DNA of 64,000 bases, from positions 133,858,001 through 133,922,000 of the forward strand of contig JBITNC010000001.1 in the NCBI GenBank assembly GCA_050084985.1, read 5' to 3'. The stretch is from Nageia nagi. Lineage: Eukaryota > Plantae > Pinophyta. The notes below the pieces were generated by a model, which worked only from the letters and a program-made list of their open reading frames with translations, searched no databases and was not told the origin of the DNA. The position numbers were made by a program, and so were the translations under genes. This document shows, piece after piece, positions 2,176 through 64,000 of the stretch (positions are counted from its first letter, which is position 1; each line of letters starts with the position of its first letter).

Positions 2176-2808
2176 TCAGATGTATCTCCTCTAAAGAAAT
2201 CCAACCATACTACAAGAGTAATTGTATTATCCATGGTTGAACACGTTGAAGACATTAACAAAATATCCCTTCTTAAAACCTATATGCTTTCACTTTTGCT
2301 CTCAGATGTATCTCCTCTAAAGAAATCCAACCATACTACAAGAGTAATTGTATTATCCATGGTTGAACACGTTGAAGACATTAACAAAATATCCCTTCTT
2401 AAAACCTATATGCTTTCACTTTTGCTCTCAGATGTCTCTCCTCTAAAGAGATCCACCCATACTACAAGAGTAACTGTATCATCAATAGTTGAACCCGTTG
2501 AAGACATTAACAAAATATCCCTTCTTAAAACCTATATGCTTTCACTTTTGCTCTCAGATGTCTCTCCTCTAAAGAGATCCAACCATACTACAAGAGTAAC
2601 TGTATCATCAATAGTTGAACCCGTTGAAGACATTAACAAAATATCCCTTCTTAAAACCTATATGCTTTCACTTTTGCTCTCAGATGTCTCTCCTCTAAAG
2701 AAATCCAACCATACTACAAGAGTAACTGTATCATCAATAGTTGAACCCGTTGAAGACATTAACAAAATATCTCTTCTTAAAACCTATACGCTTTCACTTT
2801 TGCTCTCA
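2176..2808. repeat. Tandem repeat, 126-bp unit x5
   Basis: Units start at 2176, 2302, 2428, 2554 and 2680; near-identical, with two subtypes (units 1-2 vs 3-5). Confidence 0.97.
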
Positions 2809-18900: not shown

Positions 18901-21900
18901 CGATCCCTGCATTTAGGCCCAAGATCCTTCCTCGGCAAGAGAGAGTGGCGTCGACACCCCTCACCACCGTCATCACCCTCTGCTCTTCTCGTCTCGGCCT
19001 GAGATCCTTCCTTCCTTTTTGTTTCCAACCGCCTCTTTTTTGACCAACATCTAGTTTTTGTTTTTGAACAAATACGTACCTCATGCACTAATTTTCCATA
19101 TTGCTTACCCTTCCTCTTTCATTTCCTGCACCTAGACCTTTTAATTCTTTGCAATGCATATACTCTAGGTCTACATCTATTTTCATGTCAATTTTTGTTA
19201 TTCATAACAATTTGCATGTCTATTTTTTAAGTGTTGATAAAATTTTATGTCAAAGTATGGAATGCTTATTACTTTGACTTTCTTAGATTACTTAATTTTT
19301 TAAGTTAATAAGACATGCTTAGAGCTTAATTTTTTTTAAGCTAATAATGCATACTTAGAACTTAATTTTAAATTGAAGTAATGCATGATTATTACTTAAG
19401 TTATGATGACTTTTTCATGCAAATTAAATAAATAATGCATGATTTATACTTAACCTTTTAAAGTTAAATTAATACTTACTTCTTGCTTATGCTTAATTTT
19501 TAAGTTAATGCTTAGACCTTATTTTTAAGATGCATGAATGCATGTTGAGTATTTATCCTTATGAAAACTATGGAATGGACTTGTGCAAATTTTGAGTATA
19601 TGTAAATGATGTTCTTTAGGGGTTAGTAAACAAAACCCATTGGACACTTAGGGTTCAAGTTATGAATGATGTTTTATTTATGCTCTTTTATTTCATGTTT
19701 CGTACTTTGATTTATTTGCTTATGCAAACAAAAACGCAAACATTGATATGAGCAAGCCCCTAAAATGAACACATCCGCATGTAAATTCCGCAACGACTTG
19801 TTTGGGAAGCCATGCGGACTGGAGCCTTTAAGTCCGACGATCCAAATGGTGAAAAGTTTGTACTGCTTAATTGCCCCCTAAGTCCTCTGTTGGTTTGGAT
19901 TTAACTCCAATAGGTGGATAGGTATGTGTGTAGTGATACCACATATCCGCACGTCCATTCAGGGATTATCCTGATAACCTAAGAGAACAACTTGAAACCT
20001 AATCAAGATTAATAATTTGGCCGATCCAATAGACATTGGAACCTTGGAAAATAGCTAGTACTTCTCCTTGTGAAAGGATATTGCTGCCCAAAGGGAACTG
20101 GTTGAGGATTAGTAGTACTTGGGCTCCTCTTGTGTGGGCATCCAAGTGAAGGCCTAATTTTAGACAAGAAAACAAACCTCAACAATATCACTCTACATCT
20201 ACGATTCTTGCGATGAGAAATGTATTTGAGTACATGGGTTATTATTTGAATTACATTTGCACTTGTGAATCAAATCAAGTATGTCTTTAGTGTTAAATGT
20301 AACATATATTATTTACTTGGTTTATTGAAAACACATGCTTGTTATTTCACATGTTTTATAGTAAATGGGAGAATCCTTTTTACCCAAACACATTCTTGAT
20401 AGTGCCAACTATGGGATTTGGGAACCTCAGATGAAAGCCGAATTGCAGGCAAGGAAGCTATGGTAAACAGTGAATGAGAATCTTGTACCTCCTATAGATG
20501 AAAAGGCACTAGAGGCTTACGACATAAAGAATGAGTTGGCAACCTCCATGATTTACCGTGCAATTTCAGATGATGTGCTCCTGATGATATCCTCCTCAAC
20601 CTCAACAAAGGACGCATGGGATAAGCTAAAGCAAATCTATCTTGGTTCAATCTTTTCAAAAAGGTTTACCATTTCCCAAAAGTTGCTTCAATCTCGTCAA
20701 CAGGAAGATGAAAGTGTGGCTATCTACTTGAACAAAATCATTGACCTAAGGACCCAACTTGTTGCTTGTGGGTGCAATAGGATCAATGATGAGTTCATAG
20801 TTTTCATCATTCTTCAAAGCCTCTCATCAAAGTTTGGAAACTTTGTAACAGTTATGGAAACAAGGCCTGATGATGAAAAAGAAGTCATCTCTTTTGAGAA
20901 TCTTTCTATGCACCTATTCAAGAATGAGGAAACCCTTAACAATAAAGGGTTGATCTCTTCTCCTAAAGATAATAACGTTGCTCTTGGAGCAACAACTCCT
21001 TTCAAAAAGAAGTTCAACCATCAAAAGAAATCGTATCATTCTTCCTCCAAAAGGTTTGAGGAAAAATGTAATGGCTACAACAGCAACAGGAACAACAAAA
21101 ACAACAAACACAGCAACGGGAACAACTGTAACAACAATCAGTACAAACAAACAGATGGAAAAGGCAAAACAAACACTCCTTATCCTATGAAAAAGTTTGA
21201 TAGCAATTGTAACTATTGTGACGTGCATGGTCACAAAGAAGTTGATTGTTCCAAAAAGAAAAGAGGAAAAATACAAAGACAATGGAAATGTAAAGAACTA
21301 CAAAGGAAAGAAAAATACTCATGTTGATTTTGCTGCGGCACTCTACTCCATGTCTCGCACTTTTTCATCTGAATGGATTGTTGACTCTAGTTGCACTAAT
21401 CACCTATGCTTTGAAAAAGAAAAGATTAAGAACTTTCACAAGTATAATAAGGATGCATTTGTGATAGGTGATAACTCTACCCTTGAAGTCCAAGGAATTG
21501 GAAGTGTGCTAATTCACGGAAAACTTCTTGAAAATGTTCTCTATGTTCCTAAGTAAAGGGTGAACCTTCCCTCCGTGATCCAAGTTGCTAGGAAAAGGTA
21601 CTTTTTTGAATTCAACTCCCAAAGCTAATGCATTAAGAGAGGACTTGCCACTTTGGTTAAAGGATCTGTAAAAGATAACCTTTACATTGTGAATCAAGTT
21701 CCATCAAAGATGTGTCTTGCTTCTAGTGTGTGTTCTAAAGGCAATCTTTGGCATCATCGTTTAGGGCACCTTAACCATAAGAGTATTCAAATCATGAAAG
21801 CCCAAGAACTTGTGAAAAGTTTGCCTTCAATTTCTCCTTCGGTTGGTCTATACGAGAACTACATTCCTGGCAAAATGCATAAACAAAAGTTTGAAAAAGA

Positions 21901-24900
21901 TAAGGCAACAAGAGCATCTCAACTTCAACTAATGCATTTAGATTTGATGGGTCCATTTCAGACTAAACCACTTGGAGGAGCATCTTATGTCTTGACCTTT
22001 ATTGATGACTTTAGTAGGATGACCTTTGGGTATCTACTTATGCACAAAGATCAAACTTTTGAAAGTTTTAAGGTTTTTAAAGCCTTTGTTGAGAATCAAA
22101 CTAACCTTAAAGTCAAAATGTTGAGATCAGATAATAGGGGAGAATATACAATGAGTTTAATGACTATTGTGCTAAGTATGGAATCAAGAGGCAATTTACA
22201 ATTCCATACACTCCTCAGCAAAAGAGTGTTGCCGAACGGAAAAATAGAACAATCATGGTGATGGCTAGATGCATGTTGGGTAATCTTCCTAAGTTCCTAT
22301 GAAGTGAAGCTATGAGCATTGCTATTTACACCTTGAATAGGTGTCCTACAAAAGCTGTTCAGAGTAAAACTCCTTTTGAAGCATGGTTAGGAAGAAAACC
22401 CAATATTTCTCACCTTAAGGTGTTTGGTTGTGAAACTTTCTCCTACATTGTTTCTGAGAAAAGGAAGAAGTTGGACAAAAGAGCTGAAAAATGCATCTTT
22501 GTGAGTTATGACAGTCAACATAGAGGATACAAGCTTTACTCTCCCATCTATAAAGCAATATTCATTTCAAAGAATGTAAAGTTCAATGAACTTCTTGAAA
22601 AATCTGCTTCTAACGAGGATGTTGATGATCCAAAGGACTCTTCAGTTGCTCCTAACTGGTTGGATATTGATGTAGATAAGTCACCACAGAAACAAAATTC
22701 TCCAACATAAAGGGTAACAAGGAGCATGACCTTGAACAAATCCTTAATTACTAAGATTGACAACAACCATGAGCCCTCAATTTATAAAGAAGCTTCTAAG
22801 CAGAAGTGCTGGATGGAAGCCAAGAAAGTGGAGTATGAAGTGCTTATGAAAAATAAAACTTAACACTTGGTTCCTTATCCCAATGATCAGAATATTAGTA
22901 GCTAAAGGTTTTGCTCAGAAATAAGGTATAGATTATGAGGAAACCTTTGCTCCCATGGCAAAAATGCCTACTGTGAGAGTTCTTCTTGCTATTTCTGCAG
23001 CTCAAGGATGGAAAGTTTTCCAACTTGATGTCAAGAGTGCATTTTTCAATGGTGACTTGGATGTGGAACTCTTCATGAATAAACCAGAAGGGTTTATTGT
23101 AAAAGGTAAAGAGTCCTTTGTGTGCAAGCTAAAGAAGTCTTTGTATAGACTTAAGTAAACACCTAGAGCCTGGTACAGAAAGATTTCAGAATACTTTGCA
23201 GACATTGGATTCTTCAAGTGTTTTTCTGCCTCCGATCTATATGTGCTCAATCAAGGAAAAGACGTGGTCTTGATTCTCCTTTATGTGGATGATCTTTTGA
23301 TTACTGGAAACAATGATGAAATCATCCAAGAGTGCATATCCAAACTTAAGGCAACGTTTAAAATGATTGATCTTGGTCTCTTGCACTACTATCTTGGAAT
23401 GCAAGTGTATCAATACACGGATTGTACTTATCTCAGTCAATCTAAGTATATATCAGATATCTTGCAGAAGTTTGGAATCGAGGAGTGTAGATATGCTGCA
23501 ATCCCAATCTCTCCTAGAATCACTATTTTTCTAAGCTCCAACTCTCAGTTAGCTGATGCTACCACTTACAGGCAATTAATTGGTAGTCTTTTGTATTTGA
23601 CTATCTCCAGGCTAGATATTGCCTTTGCAATGAATCTAATGGCACGCTTCATGCACAAACCTTATGTTGAGCACCTCAATGTTGTTAAGCATATTTTGAG
23701 GTATGTTGCAGGGACTAAGGATCTTGCTCTCAAGTATTCCAAGTTGCCCTCCTTTGTTCTCTCTGAATTCTCAGATTCTGACTATGAAGGAGATAGAGAT
23801 GACCGGAAGTCAACCTTTGCGTATGTGTTTAGCATTGGTTCAGGTGCTATCTCTTGAGTTTCCAAGAAACAACCTACTATTTCTCTTTCCACCATAGAAG
23901 CTGAATATTATGCCCTGTCTCTTGCAGCCTAGAAAGCCATTTTGCTAAGGCATCTTCTGAAAGAAATTGGGTATGAGCAAGGTGGCTCATCTTTGATCTC
24001 TTTAGACAATCAGTTGGCTATTTCTTTGGCTACGAATCCAGTGTTCCATCAGCAAACAAAACATGTGGAAATCCATGCCCGTTTTGTCAAGGAGAAGGTT
24101 CTTGATGGCATCATACACCTGGAGTATTGTCCATCCACCTTGAACTCCGCTGATTTGTTCACCAAGCCCCTCCCGGAAGCTCAGTTCTGTAAGCTCAAGG
24201 ATGCTCTAAAGTTGGTGAAGTTGCCCTCAAGGGGGAGTGAAGTTTGAAGTTTGAATTCTTATATTGAATTCATGTTTGTGATGACAACTTCACCCCTAGG
24301 AGGATTTTGTGCCGTATAGTGTTGATTTTGTTGTACACCTTCGTGGTAAGTTTGCTCTGCGTGAGAAACTTGTTGTACAAATTGGCCAATTTTGCATTGT
24401 TCAGTTATCCATATGTGAAGAACTTGTATCTGCATACTCTATTTTTTAATCAATCTTGCACTATTCAGTTATCCATGTGTGAAGAACTCCTGTGTCTTTT
24501 GGCACTGTTCAGTTATCCATATGTGAGGAACTCGTATGTGCATACTCTATTTTTTTGGTCAATCTAGCATTGTTCAATTATCCATATGTGAGGAACTCTT
24601 ATGTGTCCTTTGGCACTGTTCAATTATCCATATGTGAGGAACTCGTATGTGCATGCTCTATTTTGTAATGATAATCAACACATGGTTTATATACAACAGG
24701 TGACTATAAGTTTTTGGCATGGCATCTTCGTGATGACTTATAGTGCACCATTGATCAGTTTATGATGGCATTTGTGTGATTCATCTATCCTTGTTGACAT
24801 GAATATGATGCATCTAACTAATCTACTTATTTAAGTTGCTTATGACTTGCAGGTTCCTTTGAGATTGCAGGTTGCTTACCTCAAGTATGCAGGCTCTTGG

Positions 24901-27900
24901 AGACTCTTCATGACTTCCAGTTGGATGACTACTTCATGTACATTGAAACCGATTGTGGTTAATGATTGTATTTGGCAAAGAAATCAGTCTCAAACTAGAT
25001 CTTTCTTACTTCACAAATATGTAAAAAGTTCTTATCTCTGTTGTATCTATTTGGAGGAGAACTCTCTTACTTTCTCATCTTCTTCTCTCTTACTCGTTCT
25101 ATCCCCATATTGCATTAAGGGGGAGTGTTGGAATATATAGTGCATTATTGTAAAGGTTGTATTAAATCTTCTATGTAACTTCACTAATACTTAAAGGTAT
25201 CATTTGATCCCTTAAGTATTTTACTGAATATAATAATAAAACTTGTCCTACACTTCATGTCATGAGCATGCCCCTTGGGTCAAAAGATGTGCATGTCATG
25301 CTTAGGTGATCCTAAGAGGGATTTTGGCCTATAAATAGAAGGCTCCCTCTTTGTAATAATACACCAATTGTGGAGTAAAGTTATGCTATAAGATAGAAGT
25401 GTAGAAGTTGAGATTAGAAGGATTGTAAGAAACTTGTATTTGTGATTGAAGTAAAGATTTAGTTAGTGGATGTACTTCTAGTTGGAGGAACCACTTCACA
25501 TCTTGAGTTCCTTTGTGAGATTGTCTTGTTGGTGAAATTGTTGGATGTGAATTTTAGAGCTTTCATGTGATCTTGGTAGTTTAGGATTGTTCTTGTTATA
25601 GTTCAATTCTTTCAAAATCCACAAAGATGCATTATATAAGCAAGTTTGTTTTCAAGTTCAATAATACACTTTCTGTCACCAGAGTCTTCCTGAACAAAGA
25701 TTCGATGAAATCTCAAGACTTAGAGGTCCATAGTCTAAAGACTGAAGTTGGTGAAGTTAAAACAATTGGGACAAAGAGAATCTAGGATGTCACCAAACTC
25801 ACCAGGGAACTGGATGAAAGCCAAGAGAAATGAAGCCCTGAAGGAGAAACCACATCTCCCAATCCAAATCATCTCCAAGACAAGGTGGTCACAGACGGAC
25901 AAGGGCATCTTAAACAAGAGAATGAAGAAGGCTTTGGGCCAAGTGTTACAGAAGCAAAGAAGATGGACATGTCTAAGTGCACCTAAAAAGCATAGAGGCG
26001 TGATGTTGCAGTTGCAACAATTTTATTTTGTTTCAATTTATTTTAAATTTGGATTTTAAAGACTTATTAAACAGTACAACCTTGTGACAGATGAGGATTT
26101 GCTCCCACAAGTGCTGGAAAAAATATTGTAATGCCATGTGAATTTTCATTGAACCACTTTCAATTTTCTTGAAATTAGCATTAGGGTTAGGGCAACACTT
26201 GGAGTTGCAATGAAAAACTATTTATACCCCTCGAATGCTCATTTTAAAAGGGGATGGAATTTTTGGATGTGGTCATAAATATTTGCTAATAAATGAGTAG
26301 AATAATTTTTCCTATCAAGAACTTGTCTATTACGAATAAGGCATGATTTTTAAGTTGAATTGCACAACTCCATTTCTATGTTACTATGCGCTTGGATATG
26401 TAATGTTATCATTGATGTGTGTTGCTTAAATACTTGGAACATTTTACAAACCTCTTGAGAGGTGGGTGAAAGAGTAGTTGAATATCTTTTCGAAGTGTTG
26501 AATGTGATAAATAGTTAATGATTGTTTATAGTAAGCAACTAGACTTGTATAACTTTGAAGTGTGTTTCCCTATGATGTTTAACATGAGAGCTTCATCCAC
26601 ATGTTGAGAGTGTCATCCTTGTGCTCCCTTAGATGCATGCTCCCCTCACTAGACCATTCATGTCATTGGCTGGTGTGAGTGGATATTCCTACTTTTGGGA
26701 CATTCATATTGTGGATGCGTGGAACTCAAAACAAACCCAGAGGAACTTGGCATTCAAACATTGTACCAGACGATGGAGCTTGATGTAAAGAGCTGAACTC
26801 ATAAGTCCTTAATCCATTTCCAATTTTCCTTCCTACACCTTTTTCTTTACTTTTCATTTTTTCCACAGCTTTCACACCCCCTTTTATTTATTTATTTATT
26901 TACAGTATTTAAGAAACAACCCTTGTCTAGACACTAAGACAATTCGAGTCCTTAAGTAACAAATTTTATTTGAGTTGGTGTCAGCTTCAAATATCCTAGC
27001 CAATCTCTGCATCTTGTTCTTGCACATCCATCCAAGAGACCTTTGAGGTAACCAGTCCTCATAGCAAGAGTAAAGCCCTTCCAACTAGGTGTTGGTTTCT
27101 TTGTGAGCCATGCAACTTATTTGCCCATTAGCAAGGTAGGAAAGAAAAACTACCCAACAAGATCAACTTCATGAAAACCTACCAAGGGTCAAACCCTTCC
27201 AAACATTGTTGTAACGAAGACTTGAACTCTAAAATTATGTAAGGAATGTTTCTTACATGAATATGTGTTATGAAATACTCCATGTCAAGATTGGAGGTTA
27301 CAAAGAGTGATAGAGAAGATTTGTAGCCTTAAAACCAAATTCTCAGCAATTGAATGTAGTCATGTCCACCATGAAGAAAACAAGATAGTGTATACACTGG
27401 AAAACTAGACTTTCCAAAGTGGAGACTTAATCTACTATCCAAACCCTCCCAGATGATGAAGTCAACCAATCAAGGAAGATCTTTACAGTATTTTATGCCT
27501 TGATGATAATCATATTGATCCAAGTATTTCATGATTCAAAAGACCTTATTAGATTCATGTCTAAGTAAAATAACTCAATGTAATTAGAACATTATTATCA
27601 ATCATCTACAGAACTCTGGATGAATGCCCTGTTTGCTTGGAAGGGCAGAAGATATAAATTACTTGATCACTTTAACTATTACAAAGCTTTTTACATAAAA
27701 AAAAAGAATATGTATGTTATAAAATATGTTTAATTAAACTAACGAAATATCCAACATAGACTTCAGCTTTTCTAGTAAAGATGTGCTAACCCTACCAATT
27801 GACGATCACGTATTGGAGTCCATAAGAACACATTCCCCCGTTTTGGGAACACCTTGGGGAATGTTTTTTTGGCATTCCTTGTTTTTGGGGAATGAACCAG

Positions 27901-49743: not shown

Positions 49744-50708
49744 CTGTGAAACATGAAGACAAACAATTTTTAAAAAGTATGTAAAATAGAATTACTAAAA
49801 ATATACAAAACAATCTTACCATGCACAAATATAAGAAATGGCAATAATTATCCCAAGCAAAGTGAGTTTGTGATCCATTTCAGCGATGAATAGATGTCTA
49901 CTAAAATTTAAACCTTAAGTTTCTCCACACACCTGAAGGATGCACTCTTAGTAATGTTGGAAAAATTATAACGTAAAAGGAGGAAATAGTAGAAAGTAAT
50001 AAAAGATTACGGCGAAGCACAAGAAGAACACCCATGTAGTACAGAATATATTTTTAAGAACAAAAAGATGAAACCTTTAACTCCAAAGGATCAAGCAGCA
50101 CACTAACCATAAATGACAATTTTCACCTACACGGATATGTCCAACACAAAACACAAAGCCTATAGAACTGTCTAGATGGATAACAATATCACATCAACAT
50201 GCAAGCTATATTAAACTGAGATCTTGGAATCTCCTGATTTATACTAGAATTTAAGGAAAGAATGCCATGGGAAATGTAAACAATATAAGCAACGCCATAC
50301 ACAACAAGCCCAATGCATCATTCCTTAGTCTTAAGACATAAGTCAGTCCAGATGCACTGAAATTCAAGATTCAAGGTCTAAATATGCTGCACAGACAGGA
50401 TGCAAGGAATGTGTTGTTGATACTGTTGTGTCTTACACAACTCGCCCCTAAATTTTGCAATTTTAGGGACCCTCGACAATCTGGAGCCTTGAATGTCAAG
50501 TCAAAACCATTCCCCCTCATCTCCAGTAAATCCTAAATTAAGCCCATGACCCTGAAATTTAAGTGCAATCGCCTTTCCAGCCCTGGCCATCTCAAATCGT
50601 AAAGTAAAACCCTCGAAAATCGAATAAGTCTGGCCGAGTATAGATTAGGTCTAGGTGAAATAGGGAAGTCCAAGTCATGTTCAAGCCGAAACGGACGGAC
50701 CCAAGCTT

Positions 50709-51676
50709 GGCCATGCTCCACGAAGACAAGATTGTGTCTTTCTGGGACATGCGCCCAACCTAGAAGGAAGCCTGGCTTCGAAATTAAGTCCCAAAATGCA
50801 AACTAGGCCACTCCTTGATGGCCTAACGCATGCCATGAAAAGACAAAATCTTTTCTTTCTAGGACATGCGCCAGGTTAAGAAGGACCTCAAGATGAAATC
50901 AAACATGAAAAAGGACAAGTTAGTGCATGAGAAGACTGGTGCAAGCCTTAAAAACACAAAATCTTCTCTTTTGGGAGCATGCGCCCAAGCCCAAAGGTTG
51001 TCAGGGAAAACTTGGAGCCCAAAAAGAAGAAATAGACTCACCTAAGGGGTTGGCGCATGCCTCGAAAAGACACAATCTTGTCTTTTGGGAGCATGCGCCT
51101 AGCCCAAGAAGCCCCCAATCGAGGATGAAACTTAGAATTTGGCTAAGGCTCAGAGTTTTGAAGCCTAGAGCACACTCTAGCATGACTAGAGAGGTTGGCG
51201 CATGCATCCAAAAAACAAAAACATGACTTTTTGGAGCATGCACCAAGCCTGGGAAAGCACCAAGGTGGAGCAAGTATGGGAAAATGACTAAGTCCATGTA
51301 TCAAGAGGCCAAAACAAGGCAAATCTGGCCATTTACAACCCAGCGCATGCCACGAGAAGACAAGATTATGAATATTGGGAGCATGCGCCTAGATTGGGCA
51401 AGCTCGAGAAGTTGGAGGGAGTTTCAAAAAGACAAGATCCTATCTTTTGAAACCATGCGCCAGGTTTGGGAGGCACCTTGGGTCAAGTCAAGATGAGAAA
51501 ATGAGCAAATCGAACCCTAGAGAATTAAGCACCAAGCAAAATCAAGCTCAGGGCAACGCTATAGGGTCAAGTTGGACGAGCAAAAACACTAGAAGGGCCA
51601 ACGTGGGGAATGCAACCACCCCAGGGGCTGGTGCATGCCTCAAAAAGACAAAACCTTGTCTTTTGGGAGCATGCGC
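50709..51676 (+). repeat. Array of eight ~46-bp imperfect palindromes with unique spacers
   Basis: Consensus GCGCATGC-N4-AAAAGACAAAATCTTGTCTTTT-N4-GCATGCGC; CATG-to-CATG distance 36 bp. Confidence 0.9.
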
Positions 51677-51834
51677 CAGGCCAAAAGAGCCTCCAGAAAC
51701 CCAACGATTGGTCCCAGACGGCCAGGAATAAGGTTTCAAGATGGCACACATCTCAAGGTCGGCCACTTCAATGGTTGAGATGTGTTTTTCTCCAAAACCT
51801 AGCCAACTAGGGTCTTCAAAATGCCCACATCAGC

Positions 51835-51842
51835 TATAAATA
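51835..51842 (+). promoter_or_regulatory. Putative TATA box for the internal ORF
   Basis: gctataaata lies about 180 bp upstream of the ORF and is conserved at the same position in copy D (60605-60612, minus strand). Confidence 0.55.
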
Positions 51843-52023
51843 TCAACTTGCGTACCTCATTTTCCCAAATTCAAATCGCACTCCTATTCTACACTTGCGC
51901 TGAAATTGCAAACTTTTGAGTTTCAAATCCGTCCATTTGCTTGGGGAGGCTTGCGCAAGAGATATAGAAGGTTACGAGCAAGACGGGGGGGTCATAGGCT
52001 TGCCAAAAAAGCACCACATCACC

Positions 52024-55000
52024 ATGGAAGGTCCCCGTCATTCATCAGGGCACTATGACTAGTTCCAAAAGCAATTCAGCCAAGGATTATGCACGAGATC
52101 TGGAATACATCAAGCAAGAATGCCTCATTACCATATGCGAGCAATAAGACCCCTTGCCCCAAGGGACTAAATTCTCCAAAAACAGGTTGGCCACTATTGG
52201 GGACACAGATTGGCAGAAGGTGGATCTGATGCAAATGAGGGAGAAGATCAAGAACAAACCCATCAGTGAGTTGAAATAAGACATCGTCTTCTTCTCGAGG
52301 CTCTCGACTTGTACATTCGTCCCATTCACAGCTCCGTTCCCAAAGTTGTGCTTGGAAGTTGGCTAGCATTGGAAGATGGGAAGAGAGTGCTACGAGACAT
52401 TAAGGTCAACGTCATCATGGACTTCAGCCCCGAAGGCATCAAGAAGGCATTCCAATGGATTGCAGAAGGCAACTTTGAATACACAAAAGAGGAGTTGTTG
52501 GCATGCTATCGGGACACCAACAGAGCAACCGGAGCAATCATGAGTTGGATGTTCGAGGAGCACCATGGCCTAAAGGGAATGCACTTATCAATGCCCCTCG
52601 CTCCCACTTCTACCCCTCTATTCAATTAATGATCCTCATGTTGTCAAGAGTTCTCGGGAAGGAGGATGCATCCAAGTTCCAAAAGGAGTTCTTCGTCTTT
52701 ATTGTGGAGATAGCCCGAGGAAAGAAGATCAAGTGGAACAAAGTGTTAAGCGACAATATCATGGACCAGTTGTCATCAGTAGGAACCACACACAAGTTCT
52801 ACCTCAACTCCTACCTGGTATACCTATTACTACAAGGCAAACCGAGGCCCACAACTTTAGGAGAGGCGGACTTGATCACAAAGGGGACATACGTAGTGTG
52901 GAAATGCTATCCTGAATGGAAGGTCGAGAGGAGATGAGAAGACTTCACGATGAGGAGTGATGGATGGACGTACGAAATTTACAAGGAGCTTAAGGGAGAG
53001 ACTATTGTTGCTAGGATCTCCAATGCAGCCCAAGATGCGTTGAGGAGACATGGAGACTTCTTCACCCACCACTAACATTATTCCTACATCCGTTTCTATG
53101 GGTTGGCTGTGGAACCTTATCAACTACCTCGGTATGTAAGCTATCGGATGCTCCTGATGGAGATGATGAGGCAATTAGTCTACTTGCATGAACATGTTTG
53201 GCAAAAGAAGTCAGCCACTTCCAATCTACCGATTACGATTTGGGAGTATCAGTGTAGAGCTTGGGCGGATGTGACTTCAATGATAGAGGAGTTGGCGAAG
53301 TACAACTTCCCGAAGATGCCAGCCACCAATCACTATGACCCTCAACATCGGACTCATTAGTTTTACATGAAAGAAAGGAAGAGAGCTTATGAGCATAGAC
53401 CACTCAAAGATGAAGAGCCATTCCAAAACATCAGTGCTGAAGTGGAAGTGAAGAAGATCTACGCCAAGATGCAAGAAGAGGCTCGGAGGCAACAACAAGA
53501 GGTAGAGGTGTCAATTCATAAGAAGTTGTCTCAATCTCGGGGAAAGAAACCACACAGATCTACTTCCAGGGTCATTCAGTTTCTACCAACAATTGGAGAG
53601 CCTATTGGACAATATGCCTCCATGCATGGGAGGGCCCCACTTGAGCAGGTAGCACAGTAGGTTAGGGAGATGGTTGATGAACATGACATGACGGAGTTCG
53701 AGCATGTGCCCACCAATAAGATGGTGAGATGTGTGAGGAACCAAAGACCAGATCCGACTTCGCATCAAAGATCGGATCCAACTCCGCCCCAGAGACCCGC
53801 AAGGATAGCAATGGCACATCCATCCTCGATCATTCCACGATCAAGATCAGAATCCTCAGGACCTCAATACGAAGAAAATGGAACCCCTCATGGAGAACAA
53901 GCATATAGATAAGAAAATGGTGACCGACAAAGCATGCTTGAGGAAGGGGAATATGAAAGTATTCCGCAAGACGAGTCAAAGGAGGGGCTAGGAGATGAAC
54001 ACAAACCCAATACCGTTCCAGAGAGAGATATACACGACGCACAAGGTGAGGAAGAACCATCAATGGAGATCTTGAACGGCACCCATAATCATGCCACCTC
54101 AGAATCGTCGACCTCCCAGAGGAAGGAGAAAGACCTCACTTCAAAGTGAATGCCGAGAAGAACCCATTTAAAGAGAGGGTTCCAGTCCAGGTTGTCGATA
54201 ACACCAGGGGAAACTACAAGGCAAGGTGAGAGGCCTTTGAAGAAGATTTGGAACACAATCGTCGTTTCAGAAGCAATTGTTGAGACCCATAAACCTCTGC
54301 CCAATCCTGAGTGGGGAGTAAACATAGACGAGTGTCTCGATGTCTTCAACATGGATGTGGGACTAGAATTCAGACCCAAAGGGACAGGAGATCAAGTTGG
54401 AGAGAGTTCCACTCGCTTGAGGAAGAGTCAGACCTACGTACATATGACAAAAAACGTAGTGTGCATCAAGACCATAGTGGCAGACAAGGTCAACCCCCAG
54501 GGTCCCGGAGACTTGAGGCATATAAATCAGATCATCAACACGGGCCCAATTGGTGTCATTGGCAGGAAGCATGCTATTATTTCGAATACCGAGGCAATAG
54601 CCAAGGATGGGTTGTTGAAGGAACAAGAGATAAAGAGCTTGAAGGAGGAGTTGGCAACCTAGAGGAGATTGACTCGCGAGTTAGAGTTCGCCAAAGTACC
54701 TACAGATGACCTCAAGAAGGTAAGACCTCTCAAACAAGGAATGATTATTGTGAAACAAAAGGTGATGGAAAAGGCCTTAGCAATGTTGAGACGATTCATC
54801 GATATCCTCCACCAAATCTCATTCACAGAGGAGCAGCTAAGGTATATTCTCACCGAAAGGGTCAAGCTACTCAGGATCTTGGACTCCCAGAAACCCATGA
54901 TACTAAGATACGAGGCGATGCATACTCAGAGACCTGAGGACACAAAGTTTTGTGAGGATTACTGGTTTGATTTGGGTGTAAACAGCCAAGTACATACCCA

Positions 55001-55387
55001 TTTCTAGGAAACGAAACAAGGGGTGACTGCAATTAATGAAAATGTCGATGCATGTATAGAACGGATGGAATTTCAGGTACAATTCTTGGAGGAAGACACC
55101 ACCATCTAGGAAGCAGATGAGGTAGTGGCCAAGGTCAGACACCTTCTCCTTAGCCTGATGATGACCAAGGATATGAACTCCTACCAAACAAGGACTCACT
55201 TGGGGCATATGCTGCAGGCCCAAACATGGAAAAATGAAATGCAAAGGATGGTGAATGAAGCCGAGGAGAGCATGAATGCCAGCAGACCAAAGTTCTCATA
55301 GATGTAAGTGGGGTGGAGCACATGACAAAGTTCCTGGCAGCCGGGTTTGAAGACCGAGTTGCAGGCTTGGGCCCACCATTAGCCTAA
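52024..55387 (+). pseudogene. Decayed ~1,100-codon retroelement accessory ORF (non-gag/pol; acidic linker, coiled-coil-like C-terminus)
   Basis: ORF pieces 52309, 52503, 53103, 53367, 53670, 53934, 54150 and 54669 are collinear and homologous to minus-strand pieces in 57470-60445; start and end approximate. Confidence 0.8.
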
Positions 55388-56611
55388 TCATTTTTATTTT
55401 CAGTTGTTTTATTTTCACATCTTCCAGCTAGACATTCTAATATTATTTTATTCCCAAACTCCTGAAGGATGAGGATTTTCTCCCACGAGTTTGGAGGAGA
55501 TATTGTAATGCCATGTGGCAAATTTTCATTTGATCCCCTGTTATTTCGTGAATTAGGGTTAGGGCAACACTGTTGGTTGCTCCTAACATTATTTATACCC
55601 CATTCTGACTCATTTGTAGAGGATTTGACATTTTGACATCTTAATACAACTTTGTTGTGCCAAATTGCTCTTAAGTGTTGAAGGTGGTGTATGTGGATGT
55701 TATTGTAATGATATACTTGTTCATGTTGCAATAGTGGATGTGAATGAATGCTAGATAGTGTTATTTGTTTTCCTTCTATCATTACTTGATGTTAACTAAG
55801 TTTACTTGGTGCATTTCATAAACTTCACTGTAGTGGATGAGAGGTTGCTTGCATATCTTGAGAAGTAATTCACTAATATCTCGTGGGTGGCATTTCACTA
55901 TTGGCAATATTGGTTTGATGATCTTGGGATGTCTCATTGATGTTATTCACCGCGAGGACTTCACCTGAGCCCTTTAGTCCAACCTTGGTCTCGTCTTATC
56001 TCACCGCCCTAGCTTCACGCTCCGTTCACCTAGCTATTCGTGTTGTTGGCTAGTGGACTAGATAGTGGGTGCTTGGAACCCACATTGAACCCAAGTGAGT
56101 CGACTTCCAAGACTCTTTATCAAGCCCATGAATTAGCGTGTCTACTCTTGCATCATGTTACCACAGTCTTTCCACCATTGTATCTTTCTTTATTTTCTTC
56201 TATTTTTCAATTTTTTTCACCGCTTTCGCACCCCAATTTCCCTTTCAGCACTCAAGAAACAACCTTGGTGAAGTCTAAACACAAAATAACTCAAGTCTCT
56301 TGAATCCACACATGATATTCATGTTGATGCCAGCTTTAAACATCTCAACCGTCCCCTGGGTTGTTCTTGCATAACCCACGAAGTCGAACCTTTGGGGTAA
56401 CCAATCCCCATAGCGGGAGTAATGTACCTCCACCTGAGATGTTGGCGCTTTTCCCAGTACTCTAGGGTAGGAAAGGAAACCCCCCACCAGATACAAGGAC
56501 CCGAGAAGACAAGCTTATGAAGTTATGACCATGCAAATCATTGCACAATTTCTACACTCGTGATGTCTTAATTCAACCATGATATTTTTTTTGGTAGAAC
56601 TTGCTCACTAG

Positions 56612-59600
56612 TGTTGGGGTTTTTTCTTTCCTACCTTGTTAATAGGCAATTGAAACTGTAAGGCTTGTGGAAAGATACCAACAGCTGGGTGGTAGGGCAT
56701 GACCCCTACCCGCTATGACGACTAGTTACCTCAAAGGTTCAGTGATGTAATATGCAAGAGGTTACTCAGGGGATTGGTAGGCACGTTTGAAGCTATCTCC
56801 AACTCAAATAGTATTTGTTAACCAAGGACTCGAAGGGTCCCTGTTCCCAGAAATGGTTGTTTCTCAAAAGGAAAAGAAAAGTGAGGTTGCAAAAGCTGCA
56901 CAAAGAAAATGAAAAATAAAGAAAAGGGTTGAGAAGAAAGTGATATATGAATTCAGCACATGAGTTCAATATTCTCACTGACTAGTATGGGTTTTTAAGA
57001 CTTGGCTCTCACGAGCTTGACACAAGTTCCAGGACTTCGAAGCTTGGGGCTACGGCGATGGAGGTAAAAAAGGGTGAAACGTGGGTAGACCTTGATCAAG
57101 GGAGTGAAGTTCCTATACTAACCGACATATGCAAGCCATCTCAAAGAGCACAAGTCCAAAGTGCAAACTATGAAACATTACACAACCATGCATTACTTGA
57201 AGTACTTCTAAGGATATTCAATCACTCTTTTGTCCACCTTAAACTAGATTTACAAAATGTACCAAGTATTCAAGATAGCATAAGAAAGTAACACACATTC
57301 ACATTCTTAGTTTCAAATAAGAATATTCGCAATTCAATTACTTGAAGTATATCACATTCACAAATTAGGAAAACTTGCAAGCTTGAAAATATTAGGTAAG
57401 TTGTCCAATTTGCAAAATGTCTAATCCCTTACAAATGAGCCCTAGTGGCTATAAATAGTTTTACGGCATCATCATCAATGAATTTTGAGCTGCGCAAAGC
57501 CATGGACCCCCTATATTACACCTGGAACTCCATCTGCTCGAGGCTGGTGTTAGCCTTCTCATTGAGCTTTTCGACCTCCTTTTGCACCTCCTAGAAACGT
57601 GTAGCTATCTGGTTGACAACACCCAAGTAGAACTAATACTGTTAACAAAACTTCACATCTTCGGAGCTCCAATCATGTGTCATCTTGAACTTCATGATCA
57701 TTGGCCTTCAAGAATCCAAAATCCTAAGACAGTTGGCTCTCTCCACCACAATATCCTTCAACTTCTGCTCTTCGAATGTTACACTCTGTAGTGCACCAAT
57801 GAACTGTTGTAATGCTACCAAGACCTCATCAATTTCTCCCTATTTCACTGTAATCATGCCCTCTTTAAGTGACTTTATCTTTCGAAGCTCCTTCGTGGGC
57901 ACCTTAGCTGACTCCAATTCTTTAGTCACTTTCTTACGTGCAGCTAACTCCTTCCTAAGGCTTTTAATCTCCTTTTCTTTAATCATCCCATATTTGGTAA
58001 TTGCCTCAATGTTGGAAATGATTGCATGTTTCCGGCCAGCCAAACAAATAGGACCAGTATTGATGATTTGGTTGACCTGTCTGAGATCTTCAGTTCGTTG
58101 GGGATTCTCCTTGTCTGCGATTATAGTCTTGATGTGAATTGCGTTCTTGGTCAAATGCAAATAAGTCTAGGTCTTACTCGGGCAAGTGGAGCTTTCTCCA
58201 ATCTGATTATTCTCTTAACCCATTCCAAACTCCTCCCCGACATCCATGTTGAACACGTCCACACACTCTTCCATATTAACTCCCCATTCATTTGTAGGTG
58301 ATGGCTGATGAGTCTCAAAAACTGCCTCCTGAATGGTGTTGATATTCTTCTTGGCTTTCTTTGAAGGTCTCTCTTCTTCCTCACCAAGCTCTTCCGAAAC
58401 CTCTATGGTCCGTGACTATGAAGTCCTCTTCAATTTTTCTTTTCTTTGTATTGTTTCTAAGGCTGGTTCCTTACCCTTCTTTTGGATGGTTCTGAGGTAG
58501 CAGGATTTTGGACTACCATCACTATCTCCAAGGATTCATCTTCTTGTTGTGTATCAGGGATGTCGTTGTGTTGAGATGCACTGACTCCTTGTTCTTCTTC
58601 TATCTCACCCACTTCTCCTTCTTCCTCATGGTTGTTAGGTTCATATGCGAGGACTAGTGGATGCAGACCCAAATAGCGGAATGATTGGTGATGGACGTCC
58701 AGTTGCTTCTCTAGGTGGTCTTGGTGGTGGGGTTGGATCCTTCTCTCTGTTCCTAACACACATCACCATCTTGTTCGTGGCCACATGTTCAAGCTCTCTC
58801 ATGTGCTCATCAATGGTGTCCCTTACTTATTTTGCATTACCTGTTCTACTAGGTTCTTGCCATGCATTAATGCATACTGTCCAACAGGTGCTTCAACCGC
58901 GGGAGGAAACTGGGTGACCCTAGATGTAGACTCTTGAGGTCTTCTTCCCTTTTGTTGTGACAATCTCTTATTGATAGTGGTCTCAACAAGGTGTTGTTGA
59001 TCATGGGCATCTTTATGCATCTTTACACAAATCTTTTTAATCTCTACCTCGTTATTCACATTTCGGAAAGGTTCCTCTTCTCCAAGTGGTTTGTGCTTAT
59101 ATGCTTTCTTCCTTTCCTTCATAAAGAGCCAGTGCATCCTGTGGTTGAGGTTATAATGGTCGAAGGCAAGAATTTTCTTGAAGTTAAATCTCACCGACTC
59201 TTCCTTCATAGTGTCAACGTCTGCCCCAGACTTACACTGGTATTCACCTACTATAATCAGCAAATTTGAAGTAGCTAATTTCTTCTACCACACCTGTTCA
59301 TGTAGATAGGCCAACTACCTCATCATCTCCAAAAGAAACAACTGCACGGTTGACCCATAGATTCTGATATAGGAATAGTTTTGGTGATGGAGGAACAAGT
59401 CCCCATGCTTCTTCAAAGCATCCTGGGCTAAGTTAGAGATCCTTGCCACTATGATTTCTCCTTTGAGCTCCTTGTAGATCTCATACTCCCATCTATCGTT
59501 CTTCATGATGAAACTATCCCATCTCCTCTCGAGATTACATTTAGGGTAGCATCTCCAAATGGCATAGGTCCCTTTCTCGATCAATGCCAATTACCCTTTT

Positions 59601-61393
59601 GTCATGGCCTTGTACTTGTCGTGAAGCAATATGTACAACAGGTACAAATTGAGTTAGAATTTGCTAGTGGTGCCTACGGATGATAATCGATCAGCAAGTG
59701 TGTCACTCGACACCTTACTCCACCTAATCTTTTTCCCTCCAACAATTTTGATAATGAAGCCAAAGAACTCTTCCTTCTCGAGAACTCTGGACAACATCAA
59801 GATCATCAACTCAACCGAAGGGTGGAAATTGGAATAAGAGGCATTTATGAGCGCATTACCCTTAAGTCCATGATGCTCGTCCAACATCTAGTTCTTGATT
59901 GCAACGACGACCCTGTTGGTCTCTTGATAGCATGCCAGTGATTATGCCTAGCTGTACTCGAAATTTCCCTCTAAAGTCTACTGTAACGCTGTTTTGATGG
60001 CATCGAAGCTGAAGTCCATGATGATGTCTCCTTTGATGTCATGAAGGACTCTTCCCCCCCTTTTTGCCAATGATGACCAACCTCCATGCACAATTCAGGA
60101 AACGGAGCCATGAAGGGTATGCATGTGCATGTGGAGAGTCCAACGAAGAAGACAATGTCTTGTTTGAGGTCACTGACGAATAAATCACAAATTTTATCTC
60201 TCATTTGCATAGGGTCAATGTCTTGCCAATATGTGTCTCCGATGGTAGCAAGACCGTTCTTTGAGAATCTGGCCCCTTCAGGAAGGGACTCTTGTCTTTC
60301 CCAGATAGGGATGACAAAATCTTGTCTCAACCGCTCGAGGTCCCTAGAAAAATCTGAAGCCAAATTGCCCTTGGGAGTAGTCAAAGTGTTCAGGCTTACA
60401 ATGAAGTCTCTCAAGGGTGACGCGAGGGTTTCCAATTGGTGAAGACACCCTACGTTGGATTGGTTTGCCCCTCTAATGCTTGCGCAAGCCCTAGGATGAA
60501 GTATGATGGGATTCAAGCTAAAAAATCTGCAATTTCCTGCTACTTTGGCGCATAAGTGGAAGAGGAGCAAGTTTGAATTTGAGAAAATGAAGTCCACAAG
60601 CTTGTATTTATAGCCCAAACTGGCTTTGCCACTAACCCTAATCGGCTAGGTTAATGAAGCAAACTTGATCTTAGCCATCCGTCTGGCCAAACTCAAGATG
60701 TGTGTCTGCACCAAAATTCATGTTGCATGTGACCAGACGTAGGGGTTTTAGAGCTCATTCTGGCCTGGCGCATGGCCAAAAAAGACATGATTGTGCCTTA
60801 TTGAATCATTTGCCAACCTTGGGGTGAAGCATGCTCCAAACGTTGGCCCTTTTTGCTCGCTTGCTTGTCTTGACCGTGAACTTGCCCTATGACCTGATCT
60901 TTCCTAGATTTTGGTCTTTTTGGTGCCTAGACTTGTCGAATTTGATCTTTCATCTCAACCTGGGCACTCCTCAAGCTAGGCACATGATTCCAAAAGTCAT
61001 GTTTTTGACTTTTGAGGCATGCGCCAGCCTTTCCTGCTTGTCCAACTTGGTCACATGGTTCAAAAAGACATGATTGTGTCATTTTGAATCATGCGCAAGC
61101 CTCCAGATGGCCAATTTTTCGTAGTTTCATGCTTTTTTCTCCATGCCTTTGCCAAAATTTCCCCCTATGCTCGATCTTGAAGGCTTCCTGGGCATGGCAC
61201 ATGGCCAGGAAAGTCACAAACATGTCTTCTGGAATCATGTGCCAACCCTCCTGGGTGTGTTGGTCTTGGTTCCGAGGTTCTGGGCTTCATGCCTTAGTCA
61301 TTTTCTTAGTTGAACAAATTAAAAGCCTTTTTGGCCTGGTCTCACAGTTCAAAAAGACATGATTGTGTCTTTTTGAGGCATGCACCAACCTCC
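56612..61393 (-). mobile_element. Giant-LTR family type P, copy D (5'-truncated), tail-to-tail with copy C
   Basis: tgttggggtttttttctttcctacc terminus; ORF homolog; five palindromes at 60768-61385. Confidence 0.88.
57470..60445 (-). pseudogene. Second decayed copy of the accessory ORF
   Basis: LATIGDTYWQ, LMILMLSRVL, HGDLF..YSYIRIYG and INTGPI..GRKHAIISN match copy C. Confidence 0.8.
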
Positions 61394-64000
61394 TGGTATT
61401 TGAAAGGAAACCCTTCCTCTTACTCCACGATCGCCCATATGATCAAGATGGGAAAGCGACCCAGCATGTAGGTGAGAACGCGTTACTGAAAGCTCATGCC
61501 GTTAATACGAGCTTTAAATTGGTAGGTCTTGTTTGGGAATCAACTGACTGGTGTAGTAGAGGTAATAACTGTTAACTCACATTTTTTGTAGGGACTAAGG
61601 TGTGTTATCTTACAATACTTCGAAAGTTGTCATAAGTTTTTAAAGAAAGTATATAATAAAGAAAAGAAAAAGTGAGAATGAGATCGAATACTAGCTAGAC
61701 TTCAAAGAGGTAATCGCAATGCAGCATTGTCTAATTACTCTTTCTCTCTGATCAGTTAAGAAATCTTGTTCAATTCAATAAAGTCCTTGAAATGAATGAC
61801 TATTGTGCAATCATTCCAAAGATGAGTGAGAAGCAGAATTGATTATCAGTACTCTGTGAACAAAACCGTTGCAACCAAGTGGACAAACTGTGAGTGAAGG
61901 TGGATAGTTTTGAACAAAATATTTCGGAAGATGTCTTAAGAGAAAATCAATTCAAAATACTATGCACTTAACAAGCAAGTGATGAATTAGCAACAATTCA
62001 AGACAATTCAAACATTTTCAAAAGTTTACAACAAATTCTCCTAAAAATCGAAAGTTTTCAAAGAGAAGGCACAAAACGATTTGAATTACAATAATTGTCC
62101 TTAAAAGATCAATCCACCACTCCCATAGATGAAAACACACTTTGAATCAACTTGTAGCCATTTGTATTATGTTTGCAAAAGAGAATTGCATAAGTAGATC
62201 AATTTGCTCCTCAATTGCAAAAAATTTCAATTTTGAAAAAGATTGAAAATTTCTTGGATTACAACATTCTACCTCAAAATGTGACCCTCTATGGTCTATT
62301 TATAGACATTTTACATCAAAATTTGAGGGTGTTGCCCTAATTCCTAAAAAAGCTTTAAAATGCTAATTTGAATGCTAAATTGAGATTACAATATTGTTTT
62401 AGTAAGAGAACAATCTTATCCCATTCAAATATGCTAAAAATAAAATATTTACAAAAATGGATGCCCTCTGACATGCATTTCAAGGTGTTTTGCATCAATT
62501 TGTCGAAAATTGGAGCTTCAAATCCTCGTTTTGGATCCTTCTGACAACATTTTGAGCTCCTTCCTTCTTTGAATCTAGATTTGCCTGTGATGTGATCATT
62601 GTGGCAAATTTTCAAGGGATTCTAAGAGAATTTTTTGAAAAAGTCGATTATTTGGTGTATTTTTCAAAAAAGAAAAAGAGGGATCCGAAATTTGAAAATT
62701 TTTTAAAAAGTAGATTTGAGCTTATGGATGGATGGAGGATAGAATTATAAGACACTTGGCAAGTTTTGAGAGGTTTTAGAGCTTTTTTGGGAGGTTTTAT
62801 GAAGGATTAGAGATTTGGGCAATTTTTTCCAATTTCACGTCTATGGATTTCGTTTGGTAGAAAAAAGTGAAATTTCCATAGGAATGAAAAATGCCTCTTA
62901 GATTTTTGAGCCCTTTAACTTGCTCAAATTCAAAAATTCTCAAGTTAAAAGTTGCTTAAAATGTGCTCTTCAATACAATGAAGCCAAAATTTTCGATTTT
63001 TTGAGCAAAATTTTCGATTTTTTGAGCAAAATTTGATGTTCCTCCTAGAGTTAGGTGCAAGTTTTCACCTCATTGGAATTCCATAAACTTGAAAAACTGC
63101 ACCTATCTATTTGTTGCTTTTAAGTTGCTCAAATTTGAAAATTTGAAGCATTAAATATTCTCAAAAACCACTTTCCTTGCAAATATGTCAAAAAACTTGA
63201 TTTTTGGGCAAAATTTTCACATTCTCCCATGTTAGGCACCAATTTTCAGGTCTATGGATTCCCAATTGCATGAAAATCTTTGCCTTCTTTTTTGAGGGGT
63301 TGCCATGGCCTAAAATTAAAAATCTCAAGTGTTAAATGTGCTAGAAATGCCTTTTTCTATGCAATGAAGGGGTCCAACTCGATTTTTGAATGAAATTTAT
63401 CAAATTTTTCCAACCTAGGCGCCAAAATTCAGTCCTATGGGTCTTCAATCAGCCCCAAACCTACGCCTAGCTTTTTGTGCCGCCAAACTTGCTCAAAATG
63501 AAAATTTGCAAGTTTAAACCTTCTCAAAATGACCTCCATTACGTACTTATGTCTTCAAACTTGACTTTTGATCATAATTTATCAAATTTTTTTCACCCTA
63601 GACGTTGTTTTCCATTTTTTTGGATTTCCATAGCCTTGAAAAACTGCTCCTAGGCGTTTGGGCATCAAAACTTGCTCAATTTCGAAAAATTGAAGGTGTA
63701 AATGTGCTAGAAATCATCATTTTGACTTAATGAACACCTCAAACTTGATTTTTGATGAAATTTGCACTTTTCCCTCCAAGTGAGGCGCTACTTTTCACTC
63801 CTATGGATTAAGAAAAATTAGGAAAACTGCGCTTAGCTTTTAGGTGCCCAAAAATAGCTCAAATTCAATTTTTCCAAGACCTAAAGGTGCTCTAAATGAT
63901 CTTTTCACCCAATGAAACCTTAGAACTTGTGTTTTGATCAAAAATTATCAATTTTTTTAATTCTAGGCACCATTTTTCACCCCATTGGTTTTGGAAAAAG
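61394..64000 (-). mobile_element. Giant-LTR family type S, copy F (runs off the window; 3' terminus lost at the junction with copy D)
   Basis: 62440-62600 is the reverse complement of about 43560-43725 of copy E; tatttatag at about 62297; satellite-like array follows. Confidence 0.8.
62870..64000. repeat. ~183-bp satellite-like tandem array (at least 6 units)
   Basis: tagg(c/t)gc anchors at 63052, 63233, 63416, 63599, 63782 and 63964 (periods 181, 183, 183, 183, 182). Confidence 0.82.

What the first reader, a model, noticed from the sequence alone, without database searches (positions are those of the whole stretch)
50709..51676. Palindrome array with 72/114/145-bp spacing conserved across four copies whose spacer sequences have diverged
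Seen (hand-counted unit-to-unit distances in element orientation): copy C 117, 113, 114, 145, 145, 72, 216; copy B about 114, 115, 114, 145, 147, 73, 215; copy A 114, 114, 145, 145, 72, 145, 72, 72, 195; copy D about 143, 146, 72, 212. The spacers differ between units and are much less similar between copies than the palindromes are. The values 72, 114 and 145 are close to 7, 11 and 14 helical turns at 10.4 bp, and 145 is about one nucleosome core. Inference: selection holds dyad-symmetric binding sites on one face of the helix or in nucleosome register, which would make this a phased docking platform for a dimeric protein. Palindrome-rich LTR cis-regions are known in maize Sireviruses, but without this spacing rule as far as I know.
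Basis: partly seen in the sequence, partly recalled or inferred. Interest (0 to 1): 0.85.

Follow-up and report, generated by a model that had tools for sequence, protein, structure and literature searches.

The report
Conifer transposon with VANC-like docking array
A 6-kb transposable element, likely from a conifer, carries a row of palindromes at fixed spacings close to whole turns of the DNA helix just upstream of its own gene, whose protein family is predicted to fold like the Arabidopsis anti-silencing protein VANC21 and likely binds those palindromes to shield the element from silencing.

The parts
50424..56489 (+). Whole element, copy C (6,066 bp), TG...CA ends, no internal long terminal repeat
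   Evidence: Ends shared with other copies; no long direct repeat inside it in window self-BLAST
50419..50423 (+). Left copy of 5-bp target-site duplication
   Evidence: Identical 5 bp on both sides
56490..56494 (+). Right copy of 5-bp target-site duplication
50708..51677 (.). Array of eight 48-bp imperfect palindromes (starts 50708, 50825, 50938, 51052, 51197, 51342, 51414, 51630); most conserved sub-motifs are the outer GCATG/CATGC and inner AAAAGAC/GTCTTTT pairs
51135..51147 (+). Second, non-palindromic motif at a fixed offset in the 97-bp spacers
   Evidence: Found in 11 of 13 such spacers, at offset 35 in 9 of the 11
51833..51842 (+). TATA-like box of the gene's likely promoter, 177-180 bp from the centre of the last unit in 6 of 6 copies examined
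   Evidence: function inferred
52055..55301 (+). Decayed gene, about 1,080 codons: basic conserved N-terminal domain (family predicted VANC21-like), acidic low-complexity middle, helical C-terminal part; broken by stops and by frameshifts near its start
55463..55620 (+). Second promoter-like block (telobox-like repeat at 55554, TATA-like box at 55590), conserved in copies B, E, F, L002, L003; LTR-core-like by inference
5256..6719 (-). Copy A: left end and 10-unit array with duplicated modules; no gene follows
15727..27159 (+). Copy B: array, gene mostly deleted, split by a copia element (about 17346-25614); flanks match at 3 of 5 bases
56612..61401 (-). Copy D: right end, decayed gene and last 5 units; cut by another element's end at 61401
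14143..15045 (-). Copy E: right-hand 0.9 kb only
10150..11179 (+). Copy F: right-hand 1 kb of a further member

Best explanation
The palindromes sit at fixed, near-helical spacings upstream of the element's own gene and are likely the binding sites of that gene's product, a protein predicted to be VANC-like that would keep the element's promoter free of silencing. Shown: array, element boundaries, length constraint on inner spacers, phased AA/TT steps, fixed distance to the TATA box, purifying selection on the gene. Predicted: VANC21-like fold of the family's N-terminal domain. Inferred: the protein binds each dyad as a symmetric pair, integral-turn spacing lets neighbouring pairs sit on one face of bent or wrapped DNA and cooperate, and gene-less copies (A, B) are served in trans.
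Confidence: 0.55

Rival explanations
1. The array is an ordinary LTR cis-region bound by host transcription factors (as proposed for maize Sirevirus palindromes); spacing is kept for host factor cooperation or nucleosome positioning and the element's gene is not the binder.
For: Array lies upstream of a TATA box at a fixed distance; copy A keeps the array without the gene; a second fixed-offset motif suggests more than one factor; Sirevirus LTRs and their extra gene both have palindromes upstream (PMC4728375, passages).
Against: The only clear structural match of the gene family is a transposon-encoded sequence-specific DNA binder. A 48-bp dyad with four conserved sub-motifs is long for one host factor (my judgement, not tested).
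Confidence: 0.22
2. The palindromes are end-proximal sites for a transposase or integrase complex supplied in trans (like subterminal repeats of CACTA elements, recalled), and phasing serves synapsis.
For: Array starts 260-350 bp from the left end; none of 13 ends adjoins a primer site or polypurine tract, as expected if the unit itself is the mobile element.
Against: Array is on one end only; distance to the end varies (257-345 bp) while distance to the TATA box does not (177-180 bp); no transposase or integrase domain in the gene.
Confidence: 0.08
3. Conserved spacing is only shared descent after a few module duplications, with no selection on length.
For: Spacers are homologous by slot and class; A and L001 show fresh module duplications; aligner-based gap counts are ambiguous.
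Against: Neighbouring non-coding intervals vary much more (59% of 171 differ by over 3 bp, against 1% of 68); synonymous sites are saturated; the last spacer of the same array varies by 34 bp.
Confidence: 0.09
4. The units act as RNA hairpins or DNA cruciforms (small-RNA source or structural signal).
For: The array folds strongly as RNA (z -7.4); Sirevirus palindromes form hairpins and siRNA hotspots (PMC4728375).
Against: 510 Watson-Crick pairs observed against 503 +/- 9 when arms are permuted among 37 of 47 units; G-T 75 against A-C 66; equal stability on both strands, 25 of 47; hairpins would not need fixed spacer length. Small RNAs may still arise as a side effect.
Confidence: 0.06

Closest known systems
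VANC21/VANDAL21 sequence-specific anti-silencing system (Arabidopsis; PMC5735166, PMC10398659; PDB 9lnk)
   Same: Transposon-encoded accessory protein; repeated motif array in the element's non-coding region; predicted fold match over 231 residues; variable low-complexity region beside a conserved domain.
   Different: VANC motifs are 8-9 bp in tandem repeats that expand and contract, and 'palindrom' does not occur in PMC5735166; here 48-bp dyads keep fixed near-helical spacing. VANDALs are DNA transposons with a transposase gene; this element has TG...CA ends, a 5-bp duplication and no transposase. Host is a likely conifer.
Plant mobile domain proteins (MAIL2 and its palindromic M2M motif; PMD of Ogre elements)
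   Same: TE-derived domain said to resemble VANC's DUF1985; MAIL2 associates with a palindromic promoter motif near teloboxes (bioRxiv 2024.09.27.615353); PMD occurs in 57% of Ogre elements (PMC6317226).
   Different: No Pfam PMD hit; in Ogre the domain is in an extra ORF of the internal region, here the gene lies inside the unit bounded by TG...CA.
Maize Sirevirus palindrome-rich LTR cis-region (PMC4728375)
   Same: Multiple palindromes upstream of an LTR TATA box and near an extra gene.
   Different: 17-bp palindrome, about 7 per 1.3-kb LTR, fast-evolving; the word 'spacer' does not occur in the paper; copia lineage with gag-pol.
Large LTRs of LARD elements and Revolver in Triticeae (PMC2851119)
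   Same: About 5-kb LTR-like units found alone, related to a gene-bearing element.
   Different: Revolver has 139-aa protein and inverted repeats; that 2010 review states that a gene-encoding LTR had not been identified; no palindrome array in the passages seen.

Membership tests
VANC anti-silencing proteins | Shared fold of the conserved domain | tested here: inconclusive
VANC anti-silencing proteins | Pfam DUF1985 by sequence | tested here: not met
   No hit in 99 members at E 1, nor
VANC anti-silencing proteins | Repeated motif array in the encoding element's non-coding region | tested here: met
VANC anti-silencing proteins | Sequence-specific binding to that motif and loss of methylation | not testable with these tools
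   needs EMSA/DAP-seq and bisulfite data
VANDAL (Mutator-like) transposon | Transposase gene; long target duplication (about 9 bp, recalled) | tested here: not met
   5-bp duplication; no transposase domain
Solo LTR of an LTR retrotransposon | TG...CA ends and 5-bp target-site duplication | tested here: met
   copy C exact, copy B degraded
Solo LTR of an LTR retrotransposon | Parent element with two copies around PBS, gag-pol and PPT | tested here: inconclusive
   0 of 13 ends adjoin a PBS or PPT; chance 3-6e-4 at conifer solo ratios of PMC5751070, 0.05-0.13 if solo copies outnumber full ones 3-5 fold; no genome held
Plant mobile domain (PF10536) | Pfam match | tested here: not met
Plant mobile domain (PF10536) | Structural likeness to predicted PMD models | not testable with these tools
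Sirevirus LTR | Copia gag-pol, multiple PPTs, short palindrome pairs | tested here: not met
   none in or beside copy C
Structured RNA / miRNA-like hairpin family | Covariation, strand bias, Rfam match | tested here: not met
   one Rfam hit at 26 bits against a gathering score of 100

The most novel reading that the evidence does not exclude
Conifers harbour an old, abundant, undescribed class of 6-kb elements with retro-integrase-type ends but no gag-pol (a gene-carrying giant LTR, or a unit moved in trans) that encodes a VANC-fold anti-silencing protein and carries a helically phased array of its binding sites: a sequence-specific anti-silencing system outside DNA transposons and outside flowering plants, which could help explain retroelement persistence in giga-genomes.
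Probability: 0.35. Interest if true: 0.87.

Novelty: new variant of a known kind. Interest (0 to 1): 0.72.

Why it matters
Sequence-specific anti-silencing by transposon proteins is shown for Arabidopsis VANDAL DNA transposons. A VANC-like gene with a cognate site array in an element with LTR-type ends in conifers would extend it to another element class and plant lineage, give a direct test (one protein, one 48-bp site, three spacings) of how transposons stay active in heavily methylated giga-genomes, and offer a new targeted demethylation tool. A 6-kb gene-bearing unit would also be missed by LTR finders capped at 3 kb (cap stated in PMC13477047).

Tried and rejected
No whole genome is held, so no genome-wide spacing histogram. 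DNA pattern scans found nothing in metagenome, viral or prokaryote collections; protein scan of viral contigs confirmed none of 214 candidates. No RNA holder listed with certainty among 5 runs; contigs of 4 runs cover the whole element with mostly transition changes and stop at the right end with no shared flank among the rows shown (table cut). Pfam, ESM Atlas, PDB sequence, Foldseek PDB and viral (64, 65, 142) gave no usable hit; search for longer fused forms found none, weak evidence. The VIA search of the second model and the homodimer prediction were never run, so replication of the fold match and dimer formation stay open. Rejected: coding origin of the array (145 is not a multiple of 3); hairpin selection; palindrome-mediated inversion suggested by L003, because that contig repeats its own interior at both ends and may be chimeric; L006's integrase-array junction as proof of a gypsy parent (single, looks like a deletion joint). 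The first AA/TT test (119) used too lenient a null and was replaced by 123 and 125. Six look-ups in earlier findings returned nothing.

Full report
Observation. The array is as described. Copy C has eight 48-bp imperfect palindromes spaced 117, 113, 114, 145, 145, 72, 216; copies A, B and D agree with the hand counts within 1-2 bp. A profile scan never exceeded 3.9 bits in 20 shuffles of the window, while real units score up to 73. Of 7 related loci fetched by protein similarity, L001 and L004 carry the full array, L003 and L006 its last units, and L002, L005 and L007 none in the DNA held.

Context. The window is a nest of plant retroelements (copia and gypsy domains). Named relatives of the element's protein come from Taxus chinensis and Cryptomeria, so the host is likely a conifer; this is inference. 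Copy C spans 50424-56489, starts TG, ends CA and is flanked by an exact 5-bp duplication. The left end recurs in A, B, L001 and L004 and the right end in B, D, E, F, L002, L003 and a distant family in L001. Inside, in order: array, TATA-like box 177-180 bp from the last unit in 6 of 6 copies, a decayed gene of about 1,080 codons (9 stops in 886 codons read; three frames near the start), and a second promoter-like block 0.9 kb from the right end. There is no gag-pol and no internal long repeat. None of 13 ends (8 right, 5 left) adjoins a primer site or polypurine tract, and flanks are unrelated. At the conifer solo-to-complete ratios of PMC5751070 that has a chance of 3-6e-4; if solo copies outnumber complete ones 3-5 fold it is 0.05-0.13. 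I put about 0.65 on a solo form of a giant gene-bearing LTR and 0.3 on a stand-alone unit moved in trans; neither is shown.

Descent or selection. Spacers are homologous slot by slot and fall into three length classes that spread by module duplication, so only three spacings are independent. But the lineages are old: synonymous sites are saturated (pS 0.72-0.78) while pN is 0.11-0.20 in 7 of 7 comparisons, and same-slot spacers are 50.7% identical against 26.7% at random. All 35 inner spacers of 41 (the 6 left out are the last slot) lie within 3 bp of 24, 66 or 97 bp. With indel sizes and rate from five high-identity duplicates (13 gaps, 208 mismatches), the summed deviation has P of 0.011 or less in 4 of 4 settings; the count of off-mode spacers is not significant in the mildest (P 0.13), and nothing is significant at an indel ratio of 0.01. 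Empirically 90% of 68 same-slot pairs agree within 2 bp against 36% of 171 control intervals; pairs are not independent. Gap counts depend on the aligner: MAFFT shows the contrast, a permissive pairwise aligner does not. The last spacer (182-216.5) and the left-end region (257-345 bp) vary freely.

Helical phase. 72, 114 and 145 fit a 10.35-bp pitch with rms 0.28 bp; chance is 0.004-0.006, or 0.010-0.013 if 145 is tied to 72; at 10.5 bp it is 0.09-0.10, and with the last spacing 0.10-0.28. Independently, AA/TT steps in the spacers are in phase with those of the units (P 0.002-0.003 with one shared rotation per spacer class; amplitude alone P about 0.05); slots 2, 4 and 5 are periodic at 10.1-10.5, slots 1 and 3 are not. 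All six arrays rank in the top 1-6% of 227 background bins, spacers alone in the top 4-14%, and two other repeats in the window are stronger. Phasing is thus supported moderately; nucleosome register is untested.

Not a hairpin. Among 37 of 47 units of full length, arms pair no better than permuted arms (510 against 503 +/- 9), G-T and A-C mismatches are equal (75, 66), and both strands fold alike. The strong folding energy (z -7.4) follows from the palindromes. What is conserved is sequence at two symmetric sub-motifs, as for a protein site.

Mechanism. Most likely (0.55) the element encodes a VANC-like protein that binds the dyads, cooperates along one face of the bent array and protects the downstream promoter from silencing; copies lacking the gene would use it in trans. 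Binding, oligomer state and anti-silencing are inferred. Rivals: host-factor platform (0.22), descent alone (0.09), transposition sites (0.08), hairpins (0.06).

Literature seen. Passages: PMC4728375, PMC5735166, PMC10398659, PMC5751070, PMC7251063, PMC13477047, PMC13547354, PMC2851119, PMC6317226 (supplement rows 86; its two largest supplements, the element table and sequences, could not be read and may hold gymnosperm elements of this kind). First fifth of PMC11963269. bioRxiv 2024.09.27.615353: passages and Discussion (107, 109); its supplements, with PMD models and motifs, were not seen. Ten searches listed no description of this conifer family, its array or a VANC-like gene in an LTR-type element; the library lacks most subscription papers. 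Target-site lengths of Mutator and subterminal repeats of CACTA are recalled.

Verdict. A real, selected feature; a new variant of the VANC-type system if the fold match holds. Interest 0.72.

Noticed in passing
window 41000-43000 and 62500-63900: Other repeats with stronger 10-bp AA/TT periodicity than the array; the first has a ~376-bp diverged tandem unit.
   Followed up: no
window 17346-25614: Copia element with 93%-identical LTRs and tRNA-Met primer site inserted in copy B.
   Followed up: partly
window 32103-36726: Decayed gypsy gag, RT and integrase-end domains, not linked to the array family.
   Followed up: no
window 9850-10000: A different inverted repeat (about 35-bp arms) just upstream of copy F's promoter block; may be another subfamily's palindrome or a small insertion.
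   Followed up: no
L001 1-2849: A distant family member (21% identical C-terminal part) with the same gene-promoter-end layout ends 31 bp before the next unit starts; copies C and D also end 122 bp apart.
   Followed up: partly
L003 1-5930: Right end and second promoter are inverted relative to the gene, with two units between; contig ends repeat its interior, so possibly chimeric.
   Followed up: partly
L006 1-290: Gypsy integrase fragment joined directly to the last spacer of an array.
   Followed up: no
protein P0136: A Cryptomeria mannosyltransferase gene model begins with about 70 residues of this element family, a possible exon capture or annotation chimera.
   Followed up: no
window 2176-2808: Five near-identical 126-bp tandem units in an open frame.
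   Followed up: no
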